From positions 32,001-96,000 of the IMG/VR virus record IMGVR_UViG_3300030330_005258: 64,000 nucleotides of DNA; one strand, given 5' to 3'. A model generated the notes under the pieces. That model saw only the letters and a list, made by a program, of their open reading frames with translations, did no database searches and was not told the DNA's origin. Source of the stretch: a virus (lineage: Duplodnaviria > Caudoviricetes). The first letter of the stretch is position 1, and every line of letters starts with the position of its first letter. The position numbers and the translations under genes are program-made. Below are positions 6,127-13,919 of the stretch, piece by piece.

Positions 6127-6294
6127 ATGAAGCAGACCAATAGTTTTGTCGATACCATGTCACTGACGTGTGTATTGATAAACGTTGGTCTGTTTTTATT
6201 TGCTTGGTATGATGAACAACCCGAATTGACGATGCTCGCACTATTTAATGTTACTTGCTTTTTAGTGTATTTTCTTATCTCGGGACGTAAATAA
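6127..6294 (+). CDS. 55-aa two-TM membrane protein (not in ORF track)
   Basis: MKQTNSFVDTMSLTCVLINVGLFLFAWYDEQPELTMLALFNVTCFLVYFLISGRK; GAGGG RBS; TAA overlaps the next ATG. Confidence 0.6.
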   Translation: MKQTNSFVDTMSLTCVLINVGLFLFAWYDEQPELTMLALFNVTCFLVYFLISGRK

Positions 6295-7478
6295 TGTATC
6301 AAAAATTTTGGAAGCAATTCCTCACAGAACAAAACGCAGACGCCACTTATCAATTTGTGCCGGATTCAGGACAAACGGTTGCTGATGTGCCTTCGCCACC
6401 TGCGTTGCCCACCATGGCGCCGGACGAACCAACAAGACGTGAGCCACGAGAGTCAACGGGCTTTAAAGCTTTTCTTAAATCAAAGGGTCTACAATACCGC
6501 GAGCACCTTGGCTCTGGGCAAGATGGTTTCGTAGTCAGGGCTTTTAACGTAGAGACAGGGCAGATGCTTGCTATTAAGTTTGTCAATGCTGCCAGAACAA
6601 GCATGGAGACAGCTAGAAGAGAAGTTAGAAATTATGAATTTGTAAAAAGAAATAGAGAGTCTCTTGGTGAAGATGCCAAATATCTGCCAGTTGTATATGA
6701 TGCAGAAATGGCTGGTGTCCCGGCTATGGGTGAAACCATGGATGGTAGACTGGTCGTTCATGGTGTTATCTACATGGAAGAGCTTGAGCCACTACCAGCA
6801 CAAGTTGCTAAAAACCTGTTTGCAGTGGGTGGAACAACGCCAGTAACAATGGCAGCAAAAGAAAAAAGAGACAGGAGGCTGTTTAAAAATCCCAAACTTG
6901 TTTCTTCGCTCTTGAATGTAGCCTGGAGTTTGACTGATCCTTCGACCACAAGTGGTTTTATGAGTATGGAAGCGCAATTTGCAGCAGAAAAAAGAATTAT
7001 TAGAGATTTTTTTAAGGATGAATATGACCCTGAACAGATAGAGCAAGACCCATACGTGCAATATTCTAGATTTGGAAAGCAGGCTAAAGCTCTTGCAAGT
7101 TTGTATATTAAAATCACTTATGAAGAAATGTTAAAAAATCCTGAAGATGAAACTGACCTGCCAATTGTTAGAGACTATGAATCTACAATCAAAGAGGACC
7201 TGTTGGATTCGTTTACCAAGGCTTACATAAAACCATTAGTAACTGGTGCGGCAGGAAGACAACTACGACACGCATCCGGTTTGCGCGGCTTTGACGACTT
7301 CTATGGTATGGAGAAAGATTTTGAAGAAGCCTTTCCAGAAACAGCCGGTGTTCGCGCAGCTATGAAAAAGTTTGCAGGACGCGACTTCAAGCCCTTTGAC
7401 GTTCACGCTAACAACGTAATGATGCGACCCAAAACAAATGATATTGTTATTGTTGATCTTGGAAGGTTCAATATCTAG
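6294..7478 (+). CDS. leader-bearing Ser/Thr protein kinase-like protein
   Basis: Leader MYQKFWKQFLTE; LGSGQDGFV, AIK, YMEEL, DVHANNVM, DLG. Confidence 0.8.
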   Translation: MYQKFWKQFLTEQNADATYQFVPDSGQTVADVPSPPALPTMAPDEPTRREPRESTGFKAFLKSKGLQYREHLGSGQDGFVVRAFNVETGQMLAIKFVNAARTSMETARREVRNYEFVKRNRESLGEDAKYLPVVYDAEMAGVPAMGETMDGRLVVHGVIYMEELEPLPAQVAKNLFAVGGTTPVTMAAKEKRDRRLFKNPKLVSSLLNVAWSLTDPSTTSGFMSMEAQFAAEKRIIRDFFKDEYDPEQIEQDPYVQYSRFGKQAKALASLYIKITYEEMLKNPEDETDLPIVRDYESTIKEDLLDSFTKAYIKPLVTGAAGRQLRHASGLRGFDDFYGMEKDFEEAFPETAGVRAAMKKFAGRDFKPFDVHANNVMMRPKTNDIVIVDLGRFNI

Positions 7479-7486
7479 TACAACCA

Positions 7487-7822
7487 ATGTATGAATACAA
7501 CGCGATATGCACAAGAGTTGTTGATGGTGATACAATAGATGCCAGAATAGACCTTGGGTTTAGTATATGGTTGGATTGCAGGATACGATTGGAAGGCATA
7601 GACGCTCCTGAGACCCGTACAAAAAACTTGGACGAGAAGATACAAGGGTTTAGAACTAAAGAGTTTTTAAAGACAATTGTAGATGGGGCTGGTGGTCATT
7701 TTGTTTTGAAGTCTCATGGTGTAGGCAAGTATGGAAGATGCATAGGAACTATTTACGTTGGCGGCGAGAATATAAATGAAAGACTACTCGCGGAAGGTTA
7801 CGCCAAGAGGTATGAAAAATGA
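7487..7822 (+). CDS. thermonuclease (SNase-like)
   Basis: RVVDGDTID...IRLEGIDAPE...GKYGR...NERLLAEGYA. Confidence 0.9.
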   Translation: MYEYNAICTRVVDGDTIDARIDLGFSIWLDCRIRLEGIDAPETRTKNLDEKIQGFRTKEFLKTIVDGAGGHFVLKSHGVGKYGRCIGTIYVGGENINERLLAEGYAKRYEK

Positions 7823-8073
7823 TTTTATTATTTGTTCTCGCGATGAGCGCGATGGCAGAGGAACCCGAAGATAGGTCGGAAAAACTATACAAAAGCTTTT
7901 GTGTTAATTGTCACGGAGAGAGCGTGGAAAAGGTGCCCCTAAACCCCGACAGCACCACAGAACAGAGGGTCAATACAATAAACTATGGTGTGTCAAGTAT
8001 GCCACCATACAATTGGATGCTACAAGAAGGCGAAGCAGAAAAACTAGTTAAGTATATGGAAGGTATTAAATGA
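7819..8073 (+). CDS. class I c-type cytochrome
   Basis: Signal peptide (AMA-EE), CVNCH heme motif, distal MPPY Met ligand. Confidence 0.85.
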   Translation: MILLFVLAMSAMAEEPEDRSEKLYKSFCVNCHGESVEKVPLNPDSTTEQRVNTINYGVSSMPPYNWMLQEGEAEKLVKYMEGIK

Positions 8074-10133
8074 AATTTCAGGCAAGATGGCGTAGATTCC
8101 TTACCGAAGGCGGAAATGTCTTCAAGGGTGAGCGCGTTGGCGCAATCCCTTTGGAGTTTATCGAGCCTACGCTTGAGCGATATTATGAAGAGCTTGGTCG
8201 TCTATTCCCACAACAGACAGCGTTCTTCCAAACTATTGAGCCGCTTGGGTCAGTTGGCAAAAAAGCAAAGTCCGGCGATATCGATTTAGCTATTGATGTG
8301 TCGGAGCTTGCCCCAAGTCGCAAGATTGATGACCAAATGCTACAAAGTTGGGAGTTAGACCCACAGGTGTGGGCGGATACACGCGCAAGATTCGCAAAAC
8401 GTGCAAGAAACGCCACAGACGAAGAGCTTGACCTACGTGCGTTCTTATATGAGTTAGCCAAGTACATCGGAGAGAACTCACAACTAATCAAGACAGACTT
8501 AAAAAAGGTTACTTCTGGTGGTATGTTTTCACTCTTTCCTCAGATCTCGGACTCTGGAGAGCAACAAGAGATTGGAATCCAAGTTGATTGGATGCTTGGC
8601 AATAAAGACTGGCTAAGGTTTGCTTACTTCTCGGACGTTCCGTCCGAAGACCAAGAAATGCTGAAGGGTTTACACAGAACTCAGTTGATTGTTGCTCTTC
8701 TCGGAGTGAAGGACTACTCGTTCCAGCACGCGAAGGGTGTATACCGGAAGGGCACCAAGGAAAAGGTTGTTACAAGCCCCCAGGAAACCCTAGAGCTTAT
8801 CGAAAAATTATATGGGACTCCTATATCGATTGAAGAATTACGTAACTTCAGCAGCCTATACGGCTGGATTGAAGCTAATTTGTCTGACGAGGACAAAGTA
8901 GAAGTTTATCGCTACTATCTGAAGATACTTGATAGTACAAGAGGTAACAAAGACCCCGCAACTGGTGAGTCATGTGGGCATATTCCAACAGAGTTGGAAG
9001 ATTTCTGGCGTCAGAACCAAGATACTATACCTCTCAGTGGCAAATTCTTGTGTAAAGACCAGAAAGCAAGGCTTATGGGCGATGAGATGCTTGAAGAAGC
9101 AGCAACACCACGCATCGCAAACCTTGGAAACGACGACATCATCGCACTAATCGACTTGATTCTGAGTGAAGAGTCGGTGTTGGAGGTGTCAGAGAAGATT
9201 GCAGGACAAAACCTGTCTGTAAAGGTTGAAAACGGTCAGGTGTATACAAAGTACAAGAACCAGCCAGAGTATAGAGAGGCGTATGAGCCGTTCAAGTCCA
9301 TCTTTGCAGCGCATGATGGCGATGGAGAATACGTTTTTGAGATGATTTCTCCAGACAACCGACCAGATTACGTCAATTATTTGACCGACAGCACCATTTT
9401 TGTGGACTTTTCTGGGCGGCTTACCGATGAAATGGCAAAGAAACTGTCAAATGAGTCGAATACCTTCATGACCAAGAAACAAATACGTCGCAATCAGTTC
9501 GATGTGACCCCAGAGCAGCGTCAAGAGTTGGTTGGTTTGCGGTCGAGAGCAGAACAAAGACTAAGAAAGCGAGACAAACAGGAGATTGCAGACCGTATCA
9601 AGGCAATCATCCTTTCTCCAAACGTGCAGAGTGTCCTTGGCGGGGGTGTTGAGGGTCTATATGTTACCGGTGGGTCAAAAAACTTTAAGATTCCAAGCCC
9701 AACTTACCAGAATTTGCAAAAACTACAGGTTGGTATCTATGCTGTGCTCTCCGGCAGAACAAGAATACCCAAAAAAGAAGTGCGCCAACGTGTGATTGAT
9801 GGCGACCAAAACGATAAAATAGTACAGGACTTGCGTAGATTCCTGTCATTTGCTCAAAATGATATACCAGCGGGCTACAGAATGTTTGTCAGCCCTGAAG
9901 AAGCCATGAATCTGTTGTCAAAAATGGATACTCCCGAGGGTAGAAAGCAAGTATACGTGTTTCTCAACAAAAGAATCAAGAAAAAGGGCGATTGGTACAC
10001 TCCAGAGCAACTTGAAGAAGCCAAGAAATGGTCGAGAAAGTACAAAAGCAGCATAAACTGCTCTAACCCAAAAGGTTTTAGCCAGAAACAGTATTGTAAA
10101 AGACAAAGCCGAGGCGGGAAGTATAAATCTTGA
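8070..10133 (+). CDS. leader-bearing polyprotein: Pol-beta nucleotidyltransferase + RNA-ligase-like domain + Cys mini-module
   Basis: Leader MKFQARWRRFLTE; LGSVGKK..SGDIDL and QVD; EKIAG, FEMI, IFVDF, EGLYV, FKI; KWSRKYKSSINCSNPKGFSQKQYC. Confidence 0.7.
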   Translation: MKFQARWRRFLTEGGNVFKGERVGAIPLEFIEPTLERYYEELGRLFPQQTAFFQTIEPLGSVGKKAKSGDIDLAIDVSELAPSRKIDDQMLQSWELDPQVWADTRARFAKRARNATDEELDLRAFLYELAKYIGENSQLIKTDLKKVTSGGMFSLFPQISDSGEQQEIGIQVDWMLGNKDWLRFAYFSDVPSEDQEMLKGLHRTQLIVALLGVKDYSFQHAKGVYRKGTKEKVVTSPQETLELIEKLYGTPISIEELRNFSSLYGWIEANLSDEDKVEVYRYYLKILDSTRGNKDPATGESCGHIPTELEDFWRQNQDTIPLSGKFLCKDQKARLMGDEMLEEAATPRIANLGNDDIIALIDLILSEESVLEVSEKIAGQNLSVKVENGQVYTKYKNQPEYREAYEPFKSIFAAHDGDGEYVFEMISPDNRPDYVNYLTDSTIFVDFSGRLTDEMAKKLSNESNTFMTKKQIRRNQFDVTPEQRQELVGLRSRAEQRLRKRDKQEIADRIKAIILSPNVQSVLGGGVEGLYVTGGSKNFKIPSPTYQNLQKLQVGIYAVLSGRTRIPKKEVRQRVIDGDQNDKIVQDLRRFLSFAQNDIPAGYRMFVSPEEAMNLLSKMDTPEGRKQVYVFLNKRIKKKGDWYTPEQLEEAKKWSRKYKSSINCSNPKGFSQKQYCKRQSRGGKYKS

Positions 10134-11514: not shown

Positions 11515-11833
11515 CCATATTGGCATAAGAGTAGACGATCTGAAAGAGGCTGAAACATGGTATTTGAAGCGTTTGAAGGCAGAAGTGACCTTTAGGAGCG
11601 ATAAATACATTCGTTTGAAGGTGGCAAACACCAATATTGCCCTAATTGATAAGTTATACTACCCATATCCGCATGTGGCAATCCTCGTAGACAATCAAGA
11701 TGAGCTTCCACAGTTCGGACTGCGAATCAAACATCGTGATGGTACCATAGGCGTATATGTCGAAGACCCGTTTGGGAACTATTTAGAATATATTTGGTAT
11801 TCTCAAGACCAAGGTGAGACATTCCTAAAATGA
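11501..11833 (+). CDS. VOC/glyoxalase family protein
   Basis: IDHIGIRVDDL..AETWY...HVAI...YVEDPFGNYLE. Confidence 0.85.
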   Translation: MDIIDHIGIRVDDLKEAETWYLKRLKAEVTFRSDKYIRLKVANTNIALIDKLYYPYPHVAILVDNQDELPQFGLRIKHRDGTIGVYVEDPFGNYLEYIWYSQDQGETFLK

Positions 11834-12876
11834 AAAGCACACTACAGCCATTAGTAGACCAGTTTATGCCCTACGCACAGAAACGCATGGGTTTTAACAA
11901 GCTGCCTCGTATCTTTTTGCGTGATGACCCGCACAATGCACAAAACCCTCTTGGCAAAACTGCTTACTATGACCCAGCACAAATGTCAGTGACTCTATAC
12001 GTCACTGGGCGTCATCCAAAAGACGTTATGCGGTCTTTATCTCATGAGTTGATTCACCACACGCAGAATTGTAATGGACAGTTTGATGGTGCTTCTGAAA
12101 TGGGTGAGGGGTATGCACAGAACGATGAACATTTGCGTGAAATGGAACGACAAGCCTATGAACAAGGTAATTTAGTATTTAGGGATTGGGAAGATAGCAT
12201 AAAGGGCACTATTTATAATGAATCTTTGCAGAAAGGAGCAAAAAAGAAAATGTCATTGAAAGATTGGAAAAACAACGAGCTAAGAACCGTACTATCAGAG
12301 AGATGGGGGTTTTCTTTTAATCTCCTTAGTGAATCTCAAGAGGAAGAGCCTGTCGATGAAGCTAAGATCCCCGTAACAAAGAAAACTGACTCACCAGATT
12401 TTCATATTCGTCGCGAACTAAAAATGAATCCCGATGCCACTCGTCAAGAACTAGTCGATGCAGTGATGGAAAATATCCCAATGTCTAGAGAAAAATCTGA
12501 GGCAGCAGTTGACAAGCATTTATCCGGTGAAAAAGACATTGAAGAAGGCGCAGCATCCAGTGGTCGTGTAGTCACACCAGATCGTGGTGGTGAAGACCGC
12601 AGAGCTAATGACGAGCGCAAGCGTCCAATGGAGGAAGCAGAAAAGCCCGATTTTCCCGATGTGGACGGCGACGGCGACAGAGAAGAGCCCATTTCTAAGG
12701 CTTCCAAGGAAAAGAAAGATGATAAGGGTGGCGACAAGGAAGAGAAGTCCGACAAGGATGTTTCCAAAGTACCCCCACAGCTTCGCAAGCACGTCAAAGG
12801 CAAGATGGATGAACAAAAGATTCGTCGTATTATCCGCAAGCTAGTCAAAGAAGCAATGGCAAAGAAGGCCAAGTGA
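11830..12876 (+). CDS. zincin-like metallopeptidase fused to acidic modular tail
   Basis: RSLSHELIHH...ME..AY; tail with DVDGDGD motif and (V/I/M)xE sites. Confidence 0.7.
   Translation: MKSTLQPLVDQFMPYAQKRMGFNKLPRIFLRDDPHNAQNPLGKTAYYDPAQMSVTLYVTGRHPKDVMRSLSHELIHHTQNCNGQFDGASEMGEGYAQNDEHLREMERQAYEQGNLVFRDWEDSIKGTIYNESLQKGAKKKMSLKDWKNNELRTVLSERWGFSFNLLSESQEEEPVDEAKIPVTKKTDSPDFHIRRELKMNPDATRQELVDAVMENIPMSREKSEAAVDKHLSGEKDIEEGAASSGRVVTPDRGGEDRRANDERKRPMEEAEKPDFPDVDGDGDREEPISKASKEKKDDKGGDKEEKSDKDVSKVPPQLRKHVKGKMDEQKIRRIIRKLVKEAMAKKAK
12250..12876 (+). CDS. nested in-frame product (C-terminal part of 11830..12876)
   Basis: Own CTATTTA (12209), AAAGGAG RBS (12232) and in-frame ATG 12250 (MSLKDWKNNEL...). 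Confidence 0.5.
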   Translation: MSLKDWKNNELRTVLSERWGFSFNLLSESQEEEPVDEAKIPVTKKTDSPDFHIRRELKMNPDATRQELVDAVMENIPMSREKSEAAVDKHLSGEKDIEEGAASSGRVVTPDRGGEDRRANDERKRPMEEAEKPDFPDVDGDGDREEPISKASKEKKDDKGGDKEEKSDKDVSKVPPQLRKHVKGKMDEQKIRRIIRKLVKEAMAKKAK

Positions 12877-13127: not shown

Positions 13128-13919
13128 ATGTCTGATCTCTATAACAGCATAGAAGAACTCATGCTTGAGTTGGAAGATGAAGATGGCGACCCCGTTGGAG
13201 GTCGCACTCTTGCTATTGTGCCTGGGGCATTCAAGCCTCCACATCTTGGGCACCTATCGATGGTCAAGCAGTATGCTTCTGAGGCAGATGAAGTAGTTGT
13301 TCTTATTTCTTCTCCTCTCAAAGCAAGCAGGGGTGTTGGCGGCAAGCCCATCACTGCACAGCAATCCAAGCAGATTTGGGAAATGCTACTCGCAGACCAA
13401 GGGTTATCCAATGTTCGTGTTGAGATTTCACCCAAACCATCGCCTATCACGGCGACATACGAGTATATTGGTGATGATGGTCCCTTAGAGCCCGGTATAA
13501 GACTTATTCTTGGCGCTAGCCAGAAGGGTGGTGATTTCAAGCGCTGGAAGGCGGCTACTAAATACGTCAAAGACGGAGTTGAGCTTCTACCACCAGAAGA
13601 AACTGCTGTAGTGCCAGCAAATAGACCCTCTGGAGAGCCATATAGCGCCACAGACGCCCGTAAAATGTTAGAACAGGGTGATGCTGCCGACGAGTTTTTT
13701 GGAGACGGTATGGGTGTCAGGGTGCGGACTATACTGGGTCTTGATGCATCGTTGGAAGAGATGTCAGCCATGGGTGGTGGCGCTGTGGCAGGATATGCCA
13801 TGCCGCTTGGTGCGAAGAAAAGAAAGAAGATTAAAAAGATCAAACATACACCGTATAATGAGATAGAATTATACAAAGAAGTTTTGAAACTACTTAAGAA
13901 AGAAGGTATCATCAAATGA
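13128..13919 (+). CDS. HxGH cytidylyl/adenylyltransferase-like (NMNAT/PPAT superfamily)
   Basis: VPGAFKPPHLGH...YSATDARK; tail LEE-MSAMGGGAVAGY. Confidence 0.8.
   Translation: MSDLYNSIEELMLELEDEDGDPVGGRTLAIVPGAFKPPHLGHLSMVKQYASEADEVVVLISSPLKASRGVGGKPITAQQSKQIWEMLLADQGLSNVRVEISPKPSPITATYEYIGDDGPLEPGIRLILGASQKGGDFKRWKAATKYVKDGVELLPPEETAVVPANRPSGEPYSATDARKMLEQGDAADEFFGDGMGVRVRTILGLDASLEEMSAMGGGAVAGYAMPLGAKKRKKIKKIKHTPYNEIELYKEVLKLLKKEGIIK

What the first reader, a model, noticed from the sequence alone, without database searches (positions are those of the whole stretch)
8070..10133. Pol-beta nucleotidyltransferase fused to an RNA-ligase-like domain behind a packaging tag
Seen: GS..SGDID plus a third Asp (QVD) in the N-half. 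The C-half has motif-I-like EKIAG (Lys kept; the Asp of KxDG replaced by Ala), FEMI, IFVDF, EGLYV and FKI. The halves are separated by MLEE-A near 9090. Known: T4 Rnl1/Pnk repairs tRNA cut by anticodon nucleases; the Pol-beta superfamily includes CCA-adding enzymes, protein AMPylases and CD-NTases. Inference: a pre-packaged RNA end-healing/repair kit, or a nucleotide-signal modulator acting at injection.
Basis: partly seen in the sequence, partly recalled or inferred. Interest (0 to 1): 0.72.

Follow-up and report, generated by a model that had tools for sequence, protein, structure and literature searches.

The report
Head-tagged phage PolX-like/ligase-like fusion protein
An uncultured marine T4-like phage encodes a 687-residue protein that joins a small DNA-polymerase-X-like enzyme to an RNA-ligase-like enzyme behind a T4-style "load into the head" peptide; it is probably cut into two enzymes in the capsid and injected with the DNA to extend and seal broken nucleic acid, but no activity, cutting or packaging has been measured.

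Summary

- **Two modules.** Each also exists as a stand-alone protein. The boundary lies exactly at the LEE|A site near 9090.
- **N module (residues 14-343).** It folds (pLDDT 90.7) as a palm plus thumb. Its best matches are family X DNA polymerases (Z 8.9-7.3), including nearly all of ASFV PolX. The GS/DxD/D catalytic residues are invariant.
- **C module (344-650).** It folds (pLDDT 86.7) as a ligase-type nucleotidyltransferase. It is closest to RNA ligases (NgrRnl Z 9.2, REL1 8.1, Trl1, Rnl2). Lys376, Glu424, Glu528 and Lys540 are conserved, and the C-terminal domain is helical rather than an OB fold.
- **No family match.** Neither module matches any Pfam, PHROG or PDB sequence family, including RlaP and the RNA- and DNA-ligase models.
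- **Leader.** Seven proteins of this genome share the leader's core motif. The genome encodes a gp21-type prohead protease. L/I-x-E sites bracket both modules, and leaderless homologues start exactly at those sites.

Best reading: capsid-packaged, protease-processed fill-and-seal enzymes. RNA versus DNA substrate is unresolved. The scan has met similar modules in at least eight other phage genomes. Verdict: new variant of a known kind; nothing has been tested at the bench.

The parts
8070..10133 (+). Whole gene: 687-aa polyprotein (leader + PolX-like module + ligase-like module + basic tail), stop TGA at 10131-10133
   Evidence: The start ATG overlaps the stop of the upstream cytochrome-c-like gene.
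8070..8108 (+). Leader, residues 1-13, ending in F-L-T-E; predicted capsid-targeting sequence with prohead-protease cleavage after E13
   Evidence: The core motif [WF]xx[FY][LI]x[ED] heads 7 ORFs of this genome, against 0.66 expected in shuffles. Orthologues carry the canonical MKLLIENWRRFLTE form. Leaderless homologues start at M-GG. Low pLDDT.
8109..9098 (+). N module, residues 14-343: family-X-polymerase-like nucleotidyltransferase (palm + thumb + C-terminal helices)
   Evidence: AlphaFold pLDDT 90.7. Foldseek top 50 are all PolX. VIA-align top 9 are all PolX, Z 8.9-7.3. Stand-alone homologues of about 300 aa.
8247..8288 (+). G60-S61 ... S68-G-D70-I-D72-L: Pol-beta NTase signature with the two metal-binding Asp
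   Evidence: Invariant in 44 homologues. On strands 57-59 and 70-76 of the model.
8580..8588 (+). Q171-V-D173: third catalytic Asp
   Evidence: Q171 and D173 are invariant. On strand 165-177.
8664..8687 (+). K199-G-L-H-R-T-Q-L206: family-specific, nearly invariant block at the start of the thumb-like region
   Evidence: At least 90% conserved. Helix 200-213. Its role is inferred only.
9090..9098 (+). L341-E-E343 | A344: inter-module junction; predicted prohead-protease site
   Evidence: Kept in 14 of 15 diverged full-length orthologues, including L-S-E|S in the 35%-identical P0124. Stand-alone C modules carry LxE[AS] here, and leaderless ones start M-[PA]-TPRF.
9099..10019 (+). C module, residues 344-650: ligase-type covalent nucleotidyltransferase domain plus all-helical C-terminal domain (RNA-ligase-like architecture, no OB fold)
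   Evidence: pLDDT 86.7. VIA-align top 39 are all ligase/capping NTases, led by RNA ligases. Foldseek PDB. BFVD viral RNA ligases.
9192..9212 (+). E375-K376-I-A-G-Q-N: motif I, candidate adenylate-accepting Lys376 (KxAG instead of KxDG)
   Evidence: E and K at least 90% conserved. K, A and G invariant in A3. At the end of a strand followed by a loop.
9336..9410 (+). F423-E424-M-I (motif III-like Glu), R431-P-D-Y, and I443-F-V-D-F447 (motif IIIa-like aromatic strand)
   Evidence: E424, D433 and Y437 at least 90% conserved. On strands 79-86 and 102-106 of the C-half model. Motif assignment rests on order and spacing only.
9639..9695 (+). G524-G-G-V-E528-G-L-Y-V (motif IV-like) and F539-K540-I-P (motif V-like, single Lys)
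   Evidence: E528 invariant; G529, K540 and P542 at least 90% conserved. The 12-residue IV-to-V spacing compares with 13-15 in T4 Rnl1 and 14 in NgrRnl (residue numbers from PDB titles, and from own knowledge).
10011..10019 (+). L648-E-E650 | A651: second LEE|A; possible third protease site, releasing the tail
   Evidence: Kept in 11 of 15 orthologues. Lies where pLDDT falls.
10020..10130 (+). Basic tail, residues 651-687 (pI about 10.4, two Cys); optional add-on, disordered in the model
   Evidence: Present in about half of the orthologues, absent in P0094-96 and P0124. Unique in this genome. pLDDT below 50.

Best explanation
The gene encodes a polyprotein cargo of the phage head.

1. The 13-residue leader acts like a T4 capsid-targeting sequence and takes the protein into the prohead core.
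2. The phage's gp21-type prohead protease then cuts after L/I-x-E at E13|G14 and E343|A344, and perhaps at E650|A651.
3. This releases a 37.7-kDa family-X-polymerase-like nucleotidyltransferase that starts GGNVF, and a ligase of about 35 kDa with the RNA-ligase fold that starts AATPR.
4. Both are ejected with the DNA and act in sequence on broken nucleic acid. The PolX-like enzyme adds missing nucleotide(s) to a 3'-OH. The ligase becomes adenylylated on Lys376, activates the 5'-phosphate and seals the nick.

I lean towards RNA, or a strand ending in a ribonucleotide within a duplex or stem, as the 3'-OH substrate. The ligase module has RNA-ligase architecture, and its nearest structural neighbours are nick-sealing RNA ligases.

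Shown: the ORF, the two-module build, both folds, the conserved catalytic residues, the shared leader, the protease gene, and the conserved junction sites.

Inferred: packaging, cleavage, ejection, both enzymatic activities, their cooperation, and the substrate.
For: Modules:
- The exhaustive HMMER search splits the hits cleanly into residues ~8-335 and ~340-645, each with many stand-alone proteins.
- More than 100 clusters carry the fusion. P0124, at 35% identity, is still fused.

N-module fold:
- pLDDT 90.7.
- Foldseek: all 50 listed matches are PolX.
- An aligner independent of Foldseek: pol beta Z 8.9 over 179 aa, ASFV PolX Z 8.7 over 164 of 176 aa, then lambda, Tth PolX, TdT and mu. Terminal transferases follow at Z 6.7 or less.
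- The catalytic GS/DxD/D residues are invariant.

C-module fold:
- pLDDT 86.7.
- The top 39 matches are all ligase/capping NTases, led by NgrRnl Z 9.2, REL1 8.1, Trl1 7.6/7.3 over 212-222 aa including the helical domain, and Rnl2 7.0.
- 43 viral matches at E<=1e-3, mostly annotated RNA ligases.
- K376, E424, E528 and K540 are conserved.

Packaging:
- 7 ORF starts share the class A motif (0.66 expected) and 8 share the class B motif (0 expected).
- A Peptidase_S77 gene scores 102 bits.
- Only 8 [LI]xE triplets occur in the protein. Three sit at module borders and five lie inside predicted helices.
- The border sites are conserved in 13, 14 and 11 of 15 orthologues.
- Of 97 N-module homologues, 45 start at M-GG, 30 have a leader ending [LIVMF]xE|GG, and all 17 internal copies have [LIVMF]xE|GG.
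- T4 rules, a CTS of about 10 residues and gp21 cutting after L/I-x-E, come from PMC9026906 and PMC3012670.

Concept precedents:
- RlaP Pol-beta NTases work with RNA ligases and add 1-2 NMP to damaged RNA 3' ends.
- NgrRnl seals duplex nicks whose 3'-OH strand is RNA (abstract of PMC4408790).
Against: - There are no biochemical or proteomic data of any kind.
- Fold scores are moderate (best Z about 9, TM 0.3-0.4). The tool notes that a best Z of 7-8 can occur without a clear relationship.
- Motif I lacks the Asp (KxAG), and motif V has one Lys, not two.
- Motif-to-residue assignment rests on order, spacing and secondary structure, not on a residue-level superposition.
- The N module's closest folds are DNA polymerases, which fits DNA repair at least as well as RNA repair.
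- No end-healing kinase or phosphatase was recognised among the tagged neighbours.
- Stand-alone N and C modules are usually not adjacent: only 1 of 6 independent loci has both.
- In polyprotein cargo, fusion may reflect co-packaging rather than a shared pathway.
- No T4-type late promoter lies upstream.
- The conserved E before GG could in principle belong to the fold rather than to a cleavage site.
Confidence: 0.5

Rival explanations
1. DNA gap repair. The two modules form a miniature base-excision or single-strand-break repair pair, like PgVPolX or ASFV PolX plus its ligase. The PolX-like enzyme fills short gaps in the incoming, sunlight- or nuclease-damaged phage genome, and the ligase seals the DNA nick. 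Packaging may or may not apply.
For: - The N module's best structural matches are all template-directed or end-joining family X DNA polymerases, aligned over palm and thumb.
- A viral PolX-ligase fusion with proven gap-filling and nick-sealing activity exists: PgVPolX, PMC5537341.
- No other DNA-ligase family is detectable in the 154.6 kb held.
- One stand-alone C module lies 1.6 kb from a T4 endonuclease V-type pyrimidine-dimer excision gene.
- All homologues come from aquatic viromes, where DNA damage in free virions is plausible (the damage rationale is inference).
Against: - The ligase module lacks the OB domain that ATP-dependent DNA ligases carry (own knowledge). It has a helical C-domain instead.
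- It scores higher against RNA ligases (Z 9.2-6.5) than DNA ligases (about 6.3 or lower) or NAD+ LigA (5.0).
- The N module has no 8-kDa lyase or helix-hairpin-helix fingers region, although ASFV PolX lacks them too (own knowledge).
- Neighbours of stand-alone C modules include RNA enzymes: SpoU methylase, RNase T and a TilS-like ATPase.
Confidence: 0.3
2. Not a head cargo. The shared N-terminal peptide serves another purpose, such as a common regulatory, localisation or oligomerisation helix, or a recombination-spread gene start. The fusion then works uncut in the cytoplasm during ordinary infection, as T4 Rnl1/Pnkp and NrdC.11 do.
For: - No virion proteomics exists.
- The gene lies among small early-type genes (dCMP deaminase, PhoH, nuclease) and not in the head gene block.
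- No T4 late-promoter consensus lies upstream.
- Similarity to the T4 CTS is loose.
- 45 of 97 N-module homologues have no leader at all, so the enzymes do not need packaging to function.
Against: - The leader ends in the gp21 recognition motif, and the genome encodes that protease.
- Internal junctions in 17 of 17 multidomain homologues carry the same motif directly before GG. A purely N-terminal signal would not explain this.
- Leader-bearing small ORFs flank the protease gene, where T4 has its prohead core genes (T4 gene order is own knowledge).
- T4 internal-protein genes also lie outside the head gene block (own knowledge).
Confidence: 0.25
3. Host-directed modifying enzymes rather than repair. 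The Pol-beta module nucleotidylylates a host protein or blocks tRNA 3' ends (MenT-like), or makes a signalling nucleotide. The ligase-fold module adenylylates a non-nucleic-acid target or works with the recurrent NMNAT-like partner in NAD+/nucleotide chemistry.
For: - Pol-beta NTases in virion-packaged polyvalent proteins have been predicted to modify proteins (PMC5512222).
- MenT1, CD-NTases and OAS appear among weaker structural matches, Z 4.3-5.2.
- An NMNAT/PPAT-like HIGH-motif nucleotidyltransferase is the most consistent neighbour or fusion partner of both modules. A simple fill-and-seal model does not explain this.
Against: - PolX matches stand 2-4 Z units above these families and extend through the thumb.
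- The ligase module keeps the full set of ligase motif residues in the right order.
- All of its structural neighbours down to rank 39 belong to the ligase/capping-enzyme superfamily, nearly all polynucleotide ligases or capping enzymes.
- The N module also sits beside domains with weak Pfam RNA-ligase hits in P0256 and P0268.
Confidence: 0.12

Closest known systems
T4 internal proteins IPI-IPIII and Alt (capsid-targeting sequence, gp21 processing, ejection with the DNA)
   Same: A short N-terminal leader ending in L/I-x-E is shared by otherwise unrelated proteins of one phage. A gp21-family protease is present. Alt is likewise an enzyme trimmed at both ends (PMC9026906, PMC3012670).
   Different: The leader sequence differs from the T4 CTS. 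The cargo here is a two-enzyme polyprotein with an internal site, and neither enzyme type is known as head cargo. Packaging here is predicted, not shown.
RlaP (PF10127) Pol-beta nucleotidyltransferases associated with RNA ligases; T4 NrdC.11
   Same: A Pol-beta-superfamily NTase with three catalytic Asp is coupled to an RNA-ligase-type enzyme. The proposed logic is the same: restore nucleotides, then ligate.
   Different: The RlaP profile gives no match anywhere in the genome even at E<=10. The N module's fold neighbours are PolX palm plus thumb. The coupling is by fusion, not operon. RlaP proteins are not known as head cargo.
PgVPolX of Phaeocystis globosa virus 16T (PolX core fused to an NAD+-dependent DNA ligase domain; PMC5537341)
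   Same: A viral single-chain polymerase-X-then-ligase arrangement, with experimentally shown gap filling plus sealing.
   Different: PgVPolX has a full Pol-beta-like core with lyase activity and a LigA-type ligase. Here the polymerase is reduced to palm plus thumb, the ligase is RNA-ligase-like (LigA only Z 5.0), and the chain carries head-targeting and protease marks.
ASFV Pol X (174 aa) with the ASFV DNA ligase
   Same: A minimal palm-plus-thumb PolX. 164 of its 176 residues align to the N module at Z 8.7. The partner is a ligase.
   Different: They are separate genes of a eukaryotic virus. The ASFV ligase is a DNA ligase with extra DNA-binding domains. The N module is twice as long, with a helical insert of about 40 aa and a C-terminal helical extension.
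Nick-sealing RNA ligases NgrRnl/DraRnl (Rnl5), T4 Rnl2 and T. brucei REL1; tRNA ligases T4 Rnl1 and fungal Trl1-LIG
   Same: The same nucleotidyltransferase fold, with motif I Lys and motifs III, IV and V in the same order, and no OB domain. Trl1-LIG also aligns through the helical C-domain.
   Different: No sequence-profile match to PF09511 or PF09414. Motif I is KxAG. Motif V has a single Lys. A helical insert lies between motifs IIIa and IV.
Bacterial LigD (polymerase + ligase + phosphoesterase for end joining)
   Same: One chain combines a nucleotide-adding enzyme with a ligase. LigD's polymerase adds ribonucleotides that its ligase prefers to seal (own knowledge), which is the logic proposed here.
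   Different: The LigD polymerase is an archaeo-eukaryotic-primase fold, not PolX, and its ligase is an OB-containing DNA ligase. It is cellular, not virion-borne.

Membership tests
Family X DNA polymerases (PolX) | Pol-beta-type palm with hG[GS] and DxD on adjacent strands plus a third acidic residue on a later strand | tested here: met
   G60-S61, D70, D72 and D173 are invariant in 44 homologues and lie on strands 57-59, 70-76 and 165-177.
Family X DNA polymerases (PolX) | Palm plus thumb three-dimensional similarity to solved PolX enzymes | tested here: met
   Foldseek listed matches are all PolX, E about 4e-5. VIA-align top 9 are all PolX, Z 8.9-7.3, 156-188 aligned residues, model range 17-264. 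Scores are moderate.
Family X DNA polymerases (PolX) | Match to the curated sequence profile (Pfam DNA_pol_B_palm PF14792) | tested here: not met
   No Pfam hit at E<=1 for the protein, and PF14792 is not among the families listed for the 44 homologues. No PDB sequence hit.
Family X DNA polymerases (PolX) | N-terminal 8-kDa lyase and helix-hairpin-helix fingers subdomains | tested here: not met
   Only about 45 residues precede the GS strand, and the structural alignments start at pol beta residue ~139. ASFV PolX lacks these subdomains too (own knowledge).
Family X DNA polymerases (PolX) | Template-directed nucleotide addition to a primer 3'-OH | not testable with these tools
   Needs a primer-extension assay.
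RlaP (PF10127) | Match to the RlaP profile | tested here: not met
   No match in the whole genome at E<=10, while controls matched. Not listed for the homologues.
RlaP (PF10127) | Genetic association with an RNA ligase | tested here: met
   Fused to a ligase-fold module here and in more than 100 clusters. Weak RNA-ligase Pfam hits lie next to the module in P0256 and P0268.
ATP-dependent RNA ligases (covalent nucleotidyltransferase superfamily) | Ligase/capping-enzyme nucleotidyltransferase fold | tested here: met
   Ranks 1-39 are all members of the superfamily. NgrRnl Z 9.2 (161 aa, 19% identity), REL1 8.1, Trl1 7.6, Rnl2 7.0. Also.
ATP-dependent RNA ligases (covalent nucleotidyltransferase superfamily) | Motif I lysine nucleophile in KxDG/KxHG | tested here: inconclusive
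   K376 and G379 are conserved, but the third position is Ala throughout the family. The role of K376 is assigned by motif order, not by superposition.
ATP-dependent RNA ligases (covalent nucleotidyltransferase superfamily) | Motifs III, IIIa, IV and V in order | tested here: met
   E424, the aromatic strand 443-447, E528-G529 and K540 are conserved and lie on successive strands. Motif V has one Lys (K-I-P).
ATP-dependent RNA ligases (covalent nucleotidyltransferase superfamily) | Match to curated RNA-ligase profiles (PF09511, PF09414) | tested here: not met
   No hit at E<=1 in hmmscan and none at E<=10 in the genome.
ATP-dependent RNA ligases (covalent nucleotidyltransferase superfamily) | No OB domain; a family-specific accessory domain instead | tested here: met
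   C-half residues 204-300 are all helical. They align to the helical domain of Trl1-LIG (model range up to 306-309).
ATP-dependent RNA ligases (covalent nucleotidyltransferase superfamily) | Self-adenylylation and 3'-OH/5'-PO4 sealing | not testable with these tools
   Needs an enzyme assay.
T4-type capsid-targeting-sequence cargo | Short N-terminal propeptide ending in L/I-x-E, shared by unrelated proteins of the phage | tested here: met
   F-L-T-E13. 7 class A and 8 class B leaders, all at ORF starts, against 0.66 and 0 in shuffles.
T4-type capsid-targeting-sequence cargo | gp21-family prohead protease in the same genome | tested here: met
   PF03420 scores 102.4 bits, E 1.8e-30, at G000:C1:131137-131595.
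T4-type capsid-targeting-sequence cargo | Presence of the processed protein in virions and ejection into the host | not testable with these tools
   Needs virion mass spectrometry. The phage is uncultured.
PgVPolX-type PolX-ligase fusion | C-terminal domain homologous to NAD+-dependent DNA ligase | tested here: inconclusive
   LigA appears only at Z 5.0, below about 38 ATP-dependent enzymes. No sequence match.

The most novel reading that the evidence does not exclude
Aquatic T4-like phages ship a ready-made nucleic-acid mending kit inside the capsid: a PolX-like end-extender and an RNA-ligase-like sealer, with an NMNAT-like partner. The prohead protease cuts the kit from polyproteins, and it is injected with the genome to repair the incoming DNA or host-cleaved RNA before any phage gene is expressed. 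This would be the first virion-delivered polynucleotide repair system. It would also define two new enzyme families.
Probability: 0.3. Interest if true: 0.8.

Novelty: new variant of a known kind. Interest (0 to 1): 0.6.

Why it matters
Known head-packaged phage proteins inhibit restriction, modify RNA polymerase or transcribe early genes. None is known to repair nucleic acid. If these two enzymes are injected, phage counter-defence or genome maintenance starts before the first phage gene is expressed, which would change how early infection is modelled in aquatic phages.

Both modules are abundant in marine and freshwater viromes. There are 802 representative hits, essentially virus-only, and no curated family covers them. 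Assigning their activities would annotate many 'hypothetical' proteins.

A compact PolX-like enzyme and a divergent KxAG ligase could also be useful reagents. The conserved L/I-x-E junctions give a directly testable prediction for virion proteomics.

Tried and rejected
- **Family and PDB sequence searches.** Pfam and PHROG scans of the protein, and Pfam scans of 65 homologues, gave nothing relevant. PDB sequence and profile searches gave nothing.
- **RlaP.** The profile gave no match in the genome.
- **RNA- and DNA-ligase profiles.** No match in the genome, whose record is about 64% complete.
- **DUF6267.** The ESM Atlas hinted at it, by features for both halves and by shape for the N half at TM 0.56. 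The profile matches neither this genome nor five related viral records, and its control search matched nothing anywhere. Left unresolved.
- **Ligase-like regions of P0256/P0268.** The C-module profile does not match them, and PDB sequence search gave them no ligase support. The 'second ligase family' link rests only on sub-threshold Pfam hits.
- **Immuto 907-aa neighbour.** It has no BLASTP similarity to the C module.
- **T4 late promoter TATAAATA.** 5 matches against 4.5 expected, none upstream of the gene. The sigma-70 and terminator scans were at chance level.
- **Other tagged proteins.** Family scans identified no end-healing enzyme.
- **Failed or corrected calls.** The search for related loci with the 21-sequence alignment had no usable conserved block; it was repeated with 8 sequences. 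The Burroughs & Aravind 2016 RNA-repair paper could not be fetched under the id tried.
- **CD-NTase, OAS and CCA-adding readings of the N half.** Ranked below PolX, Z 4.1-5.2 against 8-9.
- **Complex prediction of N module with C module.** No verdict, score 0.00. This is not evidence either way.
- **Cellular genomes.** Only two hits for the N module, both on metagenome-assembled contigs.


Full report
**1. Observation**

Window 8070-10133 (+) is a single 687-codon ORF. Its ATG overlaps the stop codon of the upstream cytochrome-c-like gene (ATGA), and GAAGG lies six bases upstream. It sits in a long run of co-oriented genes.

Antisense ORFs are short and unsupported. Promoter and terminator scans were at chance level.

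**2. Two modules**

No Pfam, PHROG or PDB sequence match exists for the protein. An exhaustive HMMER search of 1.8 billion representatives gave 802 hits. They fall into two non-overlapping sets, residues ~8-335 and ~340-645. Each set includes many stand-alone proteins of 290-345 aa and many other fusions.

The word-indexed search found more than 100 clusters with the same fused architecture in marine metagenomes, including Tara. P0124, at 35% identity, is still fused.

Both families are essentially virus-only. The Atlas clusters are 96-100% viral. Among 185,579 species genomes there were only two hits, both on metagenome-assembled contigs. The only cultured carrier, of the N module alone, is Flavobacterium phage immuto.

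**3. N module (residues 14-343)**

In 44 homologues of 26-49% identity, T34, G60, S61, D70, D72, Q171, D173 and P306 are invariant. G14-G15 and K199-G-L-H-R-T-Q-L206 are nearly so. The AlphaFold model is confident: pLDDT 90.7, pTM 0.88.

- In Foldseek against the PDB, every listed match is a family X polymerase: beta, lambda, mu, TdT and ASFV PolX, at E about 4e-5.
- An aligner that does not depend on Foldseek agrees. The top nine of 48,161 representatives are all PolX, at Z 8.9-7.3 over 156-188 residues.
- They span pol beta's palm and thumb and 164 of the 176 residues of ASFV PolX.
- Terminal uridylyl/adenylyl transferases follow at Z 6.7 or less. OAS, CD-NTases, MenT1 and the CCA-adding enzyme score 5.2-4.1.

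The module is therefore a minimal PolX-like palm plus thumb. It has a helical insert of about 40 residues between the DxD strand and the third Asp, and a C-terminal helical extension. It is not a member of the Pfam PolX palm family or of RlaP by sequence.

**4. C module (residues 344-650)**

In 21 homologues, E375, K376, E424, D433, Y437, E528, G529, K540, P542 and others are at least 90% conserved. They are invariant among the eight full-length stand-alone ones. The model has pLDDT 86.7.

- The structural neighbours at ranks 1-39 are all ligase or capping-enzyme nucleotidyltransferases, led by RNA ligases.
  - NgrRnl: Z 9.2, 161 aa, 19% identity.
  - T. brucei REL1: Z 8.1.
  - Trl1-LIG: Z 7.6 and 7.3, over 212-222 aa including the helical domain.
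  - T4 Rnl2: Z 7.0.
  - Rnl3 and T4 Rnl1: Z 6.5.
- DNA ligases and capping enzymes score about 6.3-5.0, and LigA scores 5.0.
- Foldseek on the PDB and on viral models agrees, with 43 viral hits at E<=1e-3, mostly annotated RNA ligases or kinase-ligases.

The conserved residues fall on successive strands in the ligase motif order:

| Motif | Residues |
|---|---|
| I | K376 |
| III | E424 |
| IIIa | strand 443-447 |
| IV | E528-G529 |
| V | K540 |

The IV-to-V spacing is 12 residues. The domain after motif V is helical, not an OB fold.

Deviations from the ligase consensus are KxAG in motif I, a single Lys in motif V, and a helical insert before motif IV. Pfam RNA- and DNA-ligase profiles do not detect it.

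**5. The tag and the junctions**

The genome is a 154.6-kb viral record, about 64% complete, and the window is bases 32001-96000 of it. It is T4-like. It has a gp6-type baseplate wedge gene and a gp21-type prohead protease at 102 bits. Its nearest cultured relative is phage immuto, at 42% identity on the protease.

- Seven ORFs start with the core of the target's leader, against 0.66 expected. Eight start with a second leader type (LKQIIKEE core), against 0 expected. All are on the coding strand at ORF starts.
- Leader-bearing small ORFs flank the protease gene.
- T4 gp21 cuts after L/I-x-E, and a leader of about 10 residues suffices for head targeting (PMC9026906, PMC3012670).
- The protein has only eight [LI]xE triplets. 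Three lie at E13|G14, E343|A344 and E650|A651. The other five lie inside predicted helices.
- These three sites are kept in 13, 14 and 11 of 15 diverged orthologues. Several of those carry the canonical MKLLIENWRRFLTE leader.
- Across 97 representative N-module homologues, 45 begin M-GG, 30 have a short leader ending [LIVMF]xE|GG, and all 17 internally fused copies have [LIVMF]xE|GG at the junction.
- Initiator Met is normally removed before Gly (own knowledge). Both routes would therefore give the same mature N-terminus, GGNVF.
- C modules behave alike: leaderless forms start M-[PA]-TPRF, and the others have LxE[AS] just before TPR.

This is strong indirect evidence for processing at the borders. 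It is not proof.

**6. Context**

The most consistent partner of both modules is a HIGH-motif (HxGH) nucleotidyltransferase of NMNAT/PPAT type.

- It is fused to the N module in P0145, P0148, P0174, P0175 and P0256, and in an Atlas cluster represented by a 531-aa protein.
- It is fused to the C module in P0166 and P0178.
- It is the gene immediately upstream of stand-alone C modules in 4 of 6 independent loci.
- It is present in this window at 13128-13919.

An atypical kinase-like protein (6294-7478, same leader) and an HExxH protein (11830-12876) recur in the same fusions. Stand-alone N and C modules are seldom adjacent; only L009 has both.

Because the fusions may be polyprotein cargo, they support co-delivery more firmly than a shared pathway.

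**7. Mechanism and rivals**

Literature gives two precedents for coupling a Pol-beta-type enzyme to a ligase.

- RlaP NTases add 1-2 NMP to damaged RNA 3' ends next to RNA ligases (PMC7824862 and bioRxiv 10.64898/2025.12.29.696909).
- PgVPolX is a viral PolX-ligase fusion that fills and seals DNA gaps (PMC5537341).

I conclude that the protein is most likely a head-packaged, protease-split pair of fill-and-seal enzymes (confidence 0.5).

On the substrate, I lean towards RNA or a ribo-terminated strand, because the ligase has RNA-ligase architecture and nick-sealing RNA ligases are its nearest folds. DNA gap repair of the incoming genome is a serious rival (0.3), because the polymerase module's neighbours are DNA polymerases.

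The other rivals are non-packaged cytoplasmic action (0.25, orthogonal to the substrate question) and host-directed nucleotidylylation or NAD-linked chemistry (0.12). The last of these draws on the unexplained NMNAT-like partner.

**8. Novelty and standing**

The individual ideas are known: CTS cargo, NTase-plus-ligase repair, and PolX-ligase fusion. Their combination in a predicted head-delivered polyprotein, built from two families unknown to curated databases, is a new variant.

This scan has already met similar modules in at least eight other phage genomes, with similar readings. Those are unverified AI notes. I tested the shared claims on this protein independently.

Nothing here has been measured at the bench. 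Virion proteomics and simple adenylylation, sealing and extension assays would settle it.

Noticed in passing
window 13128-13919 (+); L005 4354-4962; L009 9139-9918; L010 9195-9956; L012 319-1080: A HIGH-motif (HxGH) NMNAT/PPAT-like nucleotidyltransferase is the most constant neighbour or fusion partner of both modules. It sits directly upstream of stand-alone ligase-like genes in 4 of 6 loci. It is fused to the ligase-like module in P0166 and P0178. It is fused to the PolX-like module in several proteins and in an Atlas cluster represented by a 531-aa protein. The fill-and-seal model does not explain its role.
   Followed up: partly
window 11830-12876 (+): A 348-aa protein with an HExxH motif (S-H-E-L-I-H-H) and an acidic/basic C-terminal half. 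It resembles the C-terminal part of the 907-aa 'NadR' protein of Flavobacterium phage immuto (seen in the alignment). It also resembles the metallopeptidase-like end of P0174. It may belong to the same recurring gene set.
   Followed up: partly
window 6294-7478 (+): A 394-aa protein with the same leader type (ending F-L-T-E|Q) and weak protein-kinase / ABC1-like matches. A similar atypical kinase domain occurs in the 2206-aa polyprotein P0256, together with the PolX-like and NMNAT-like domains.
   Followed up: partly
G000:C1 31937, 35870, 114461, 118715, 120776, 121285, 122005, 130821 (window -63, 3870, and beyond its end): A second leader family (MKITKxRLKQIIKEE-type) heads 8 ORFs, against 0 expected. 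Several of them flank the prohead protease gene, where T4 has its prohead core genes.
   Followed up: partly
homologues P0217, P0227, P0231, P0232, P0208 (alignment A2, C-terminal columns): Leaderless stand-alone ligase-like proteins end in an amphipathic segment (for example LLREYIRRLL, LLRQLIKEHL) that looks like the N-terminal leaders. The targeting helix may sometimes sit at the C-terminus.
   Followed up: no
window 10020-10130 (+): A conserved basic tail with two Cys (core S-I-N-C-S-x-P-K-G-F-S-Q-K-Q-Y-C-K-R-Q) follows a second LEE|A. It is present in about half of the orthologues and is unique in this genome. Its function is unknown; DNA binding inside the head is a guess.
   Followed up: partly
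window 7487-7822 and 7819-8073 (+): A Staphylococcal-nuclease-type gene and a small cytochrome c (cbb3-type haem motif, signal-peptide-like start) lie directly upstream and are translationally coupled to the target. Neither has the leader.
   Followed up: no
L005/L006 2304-7799: A stand-alone ligase-like gene sits among RNA-handling genes: an RNase T-type exonuclease, a SpoU 2'-O-methyltransferase and a TilS-like PP-loop ATPase. In another contig, a T4 endonuclease V-type gene lies 1.6 kb away. The contexts point to both RNA and DNA.
   Followed up: no
P0137, P0145, P0149, P0160, P0259 (regions just after the PolX-like module): Many multidomain homologues carry a second, smaller Pol-beta palm directly after the PolX-like module. 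It hits Pfam DNA_pol_B_palm, NTP_transf_2 or Polbeta near or below the cut-offs.
   Followed up: partly
ESM Atlas cluster with PF19782 (DUF6267): The Atlas shape search links DUF6267 to the N half (TM 0.56, 217 aa), whereas earlier scan notes call DUF6267 ligase-like. The profile matches neither this genome nor five related records, so the relation is unresolved.
   Followed up: partly
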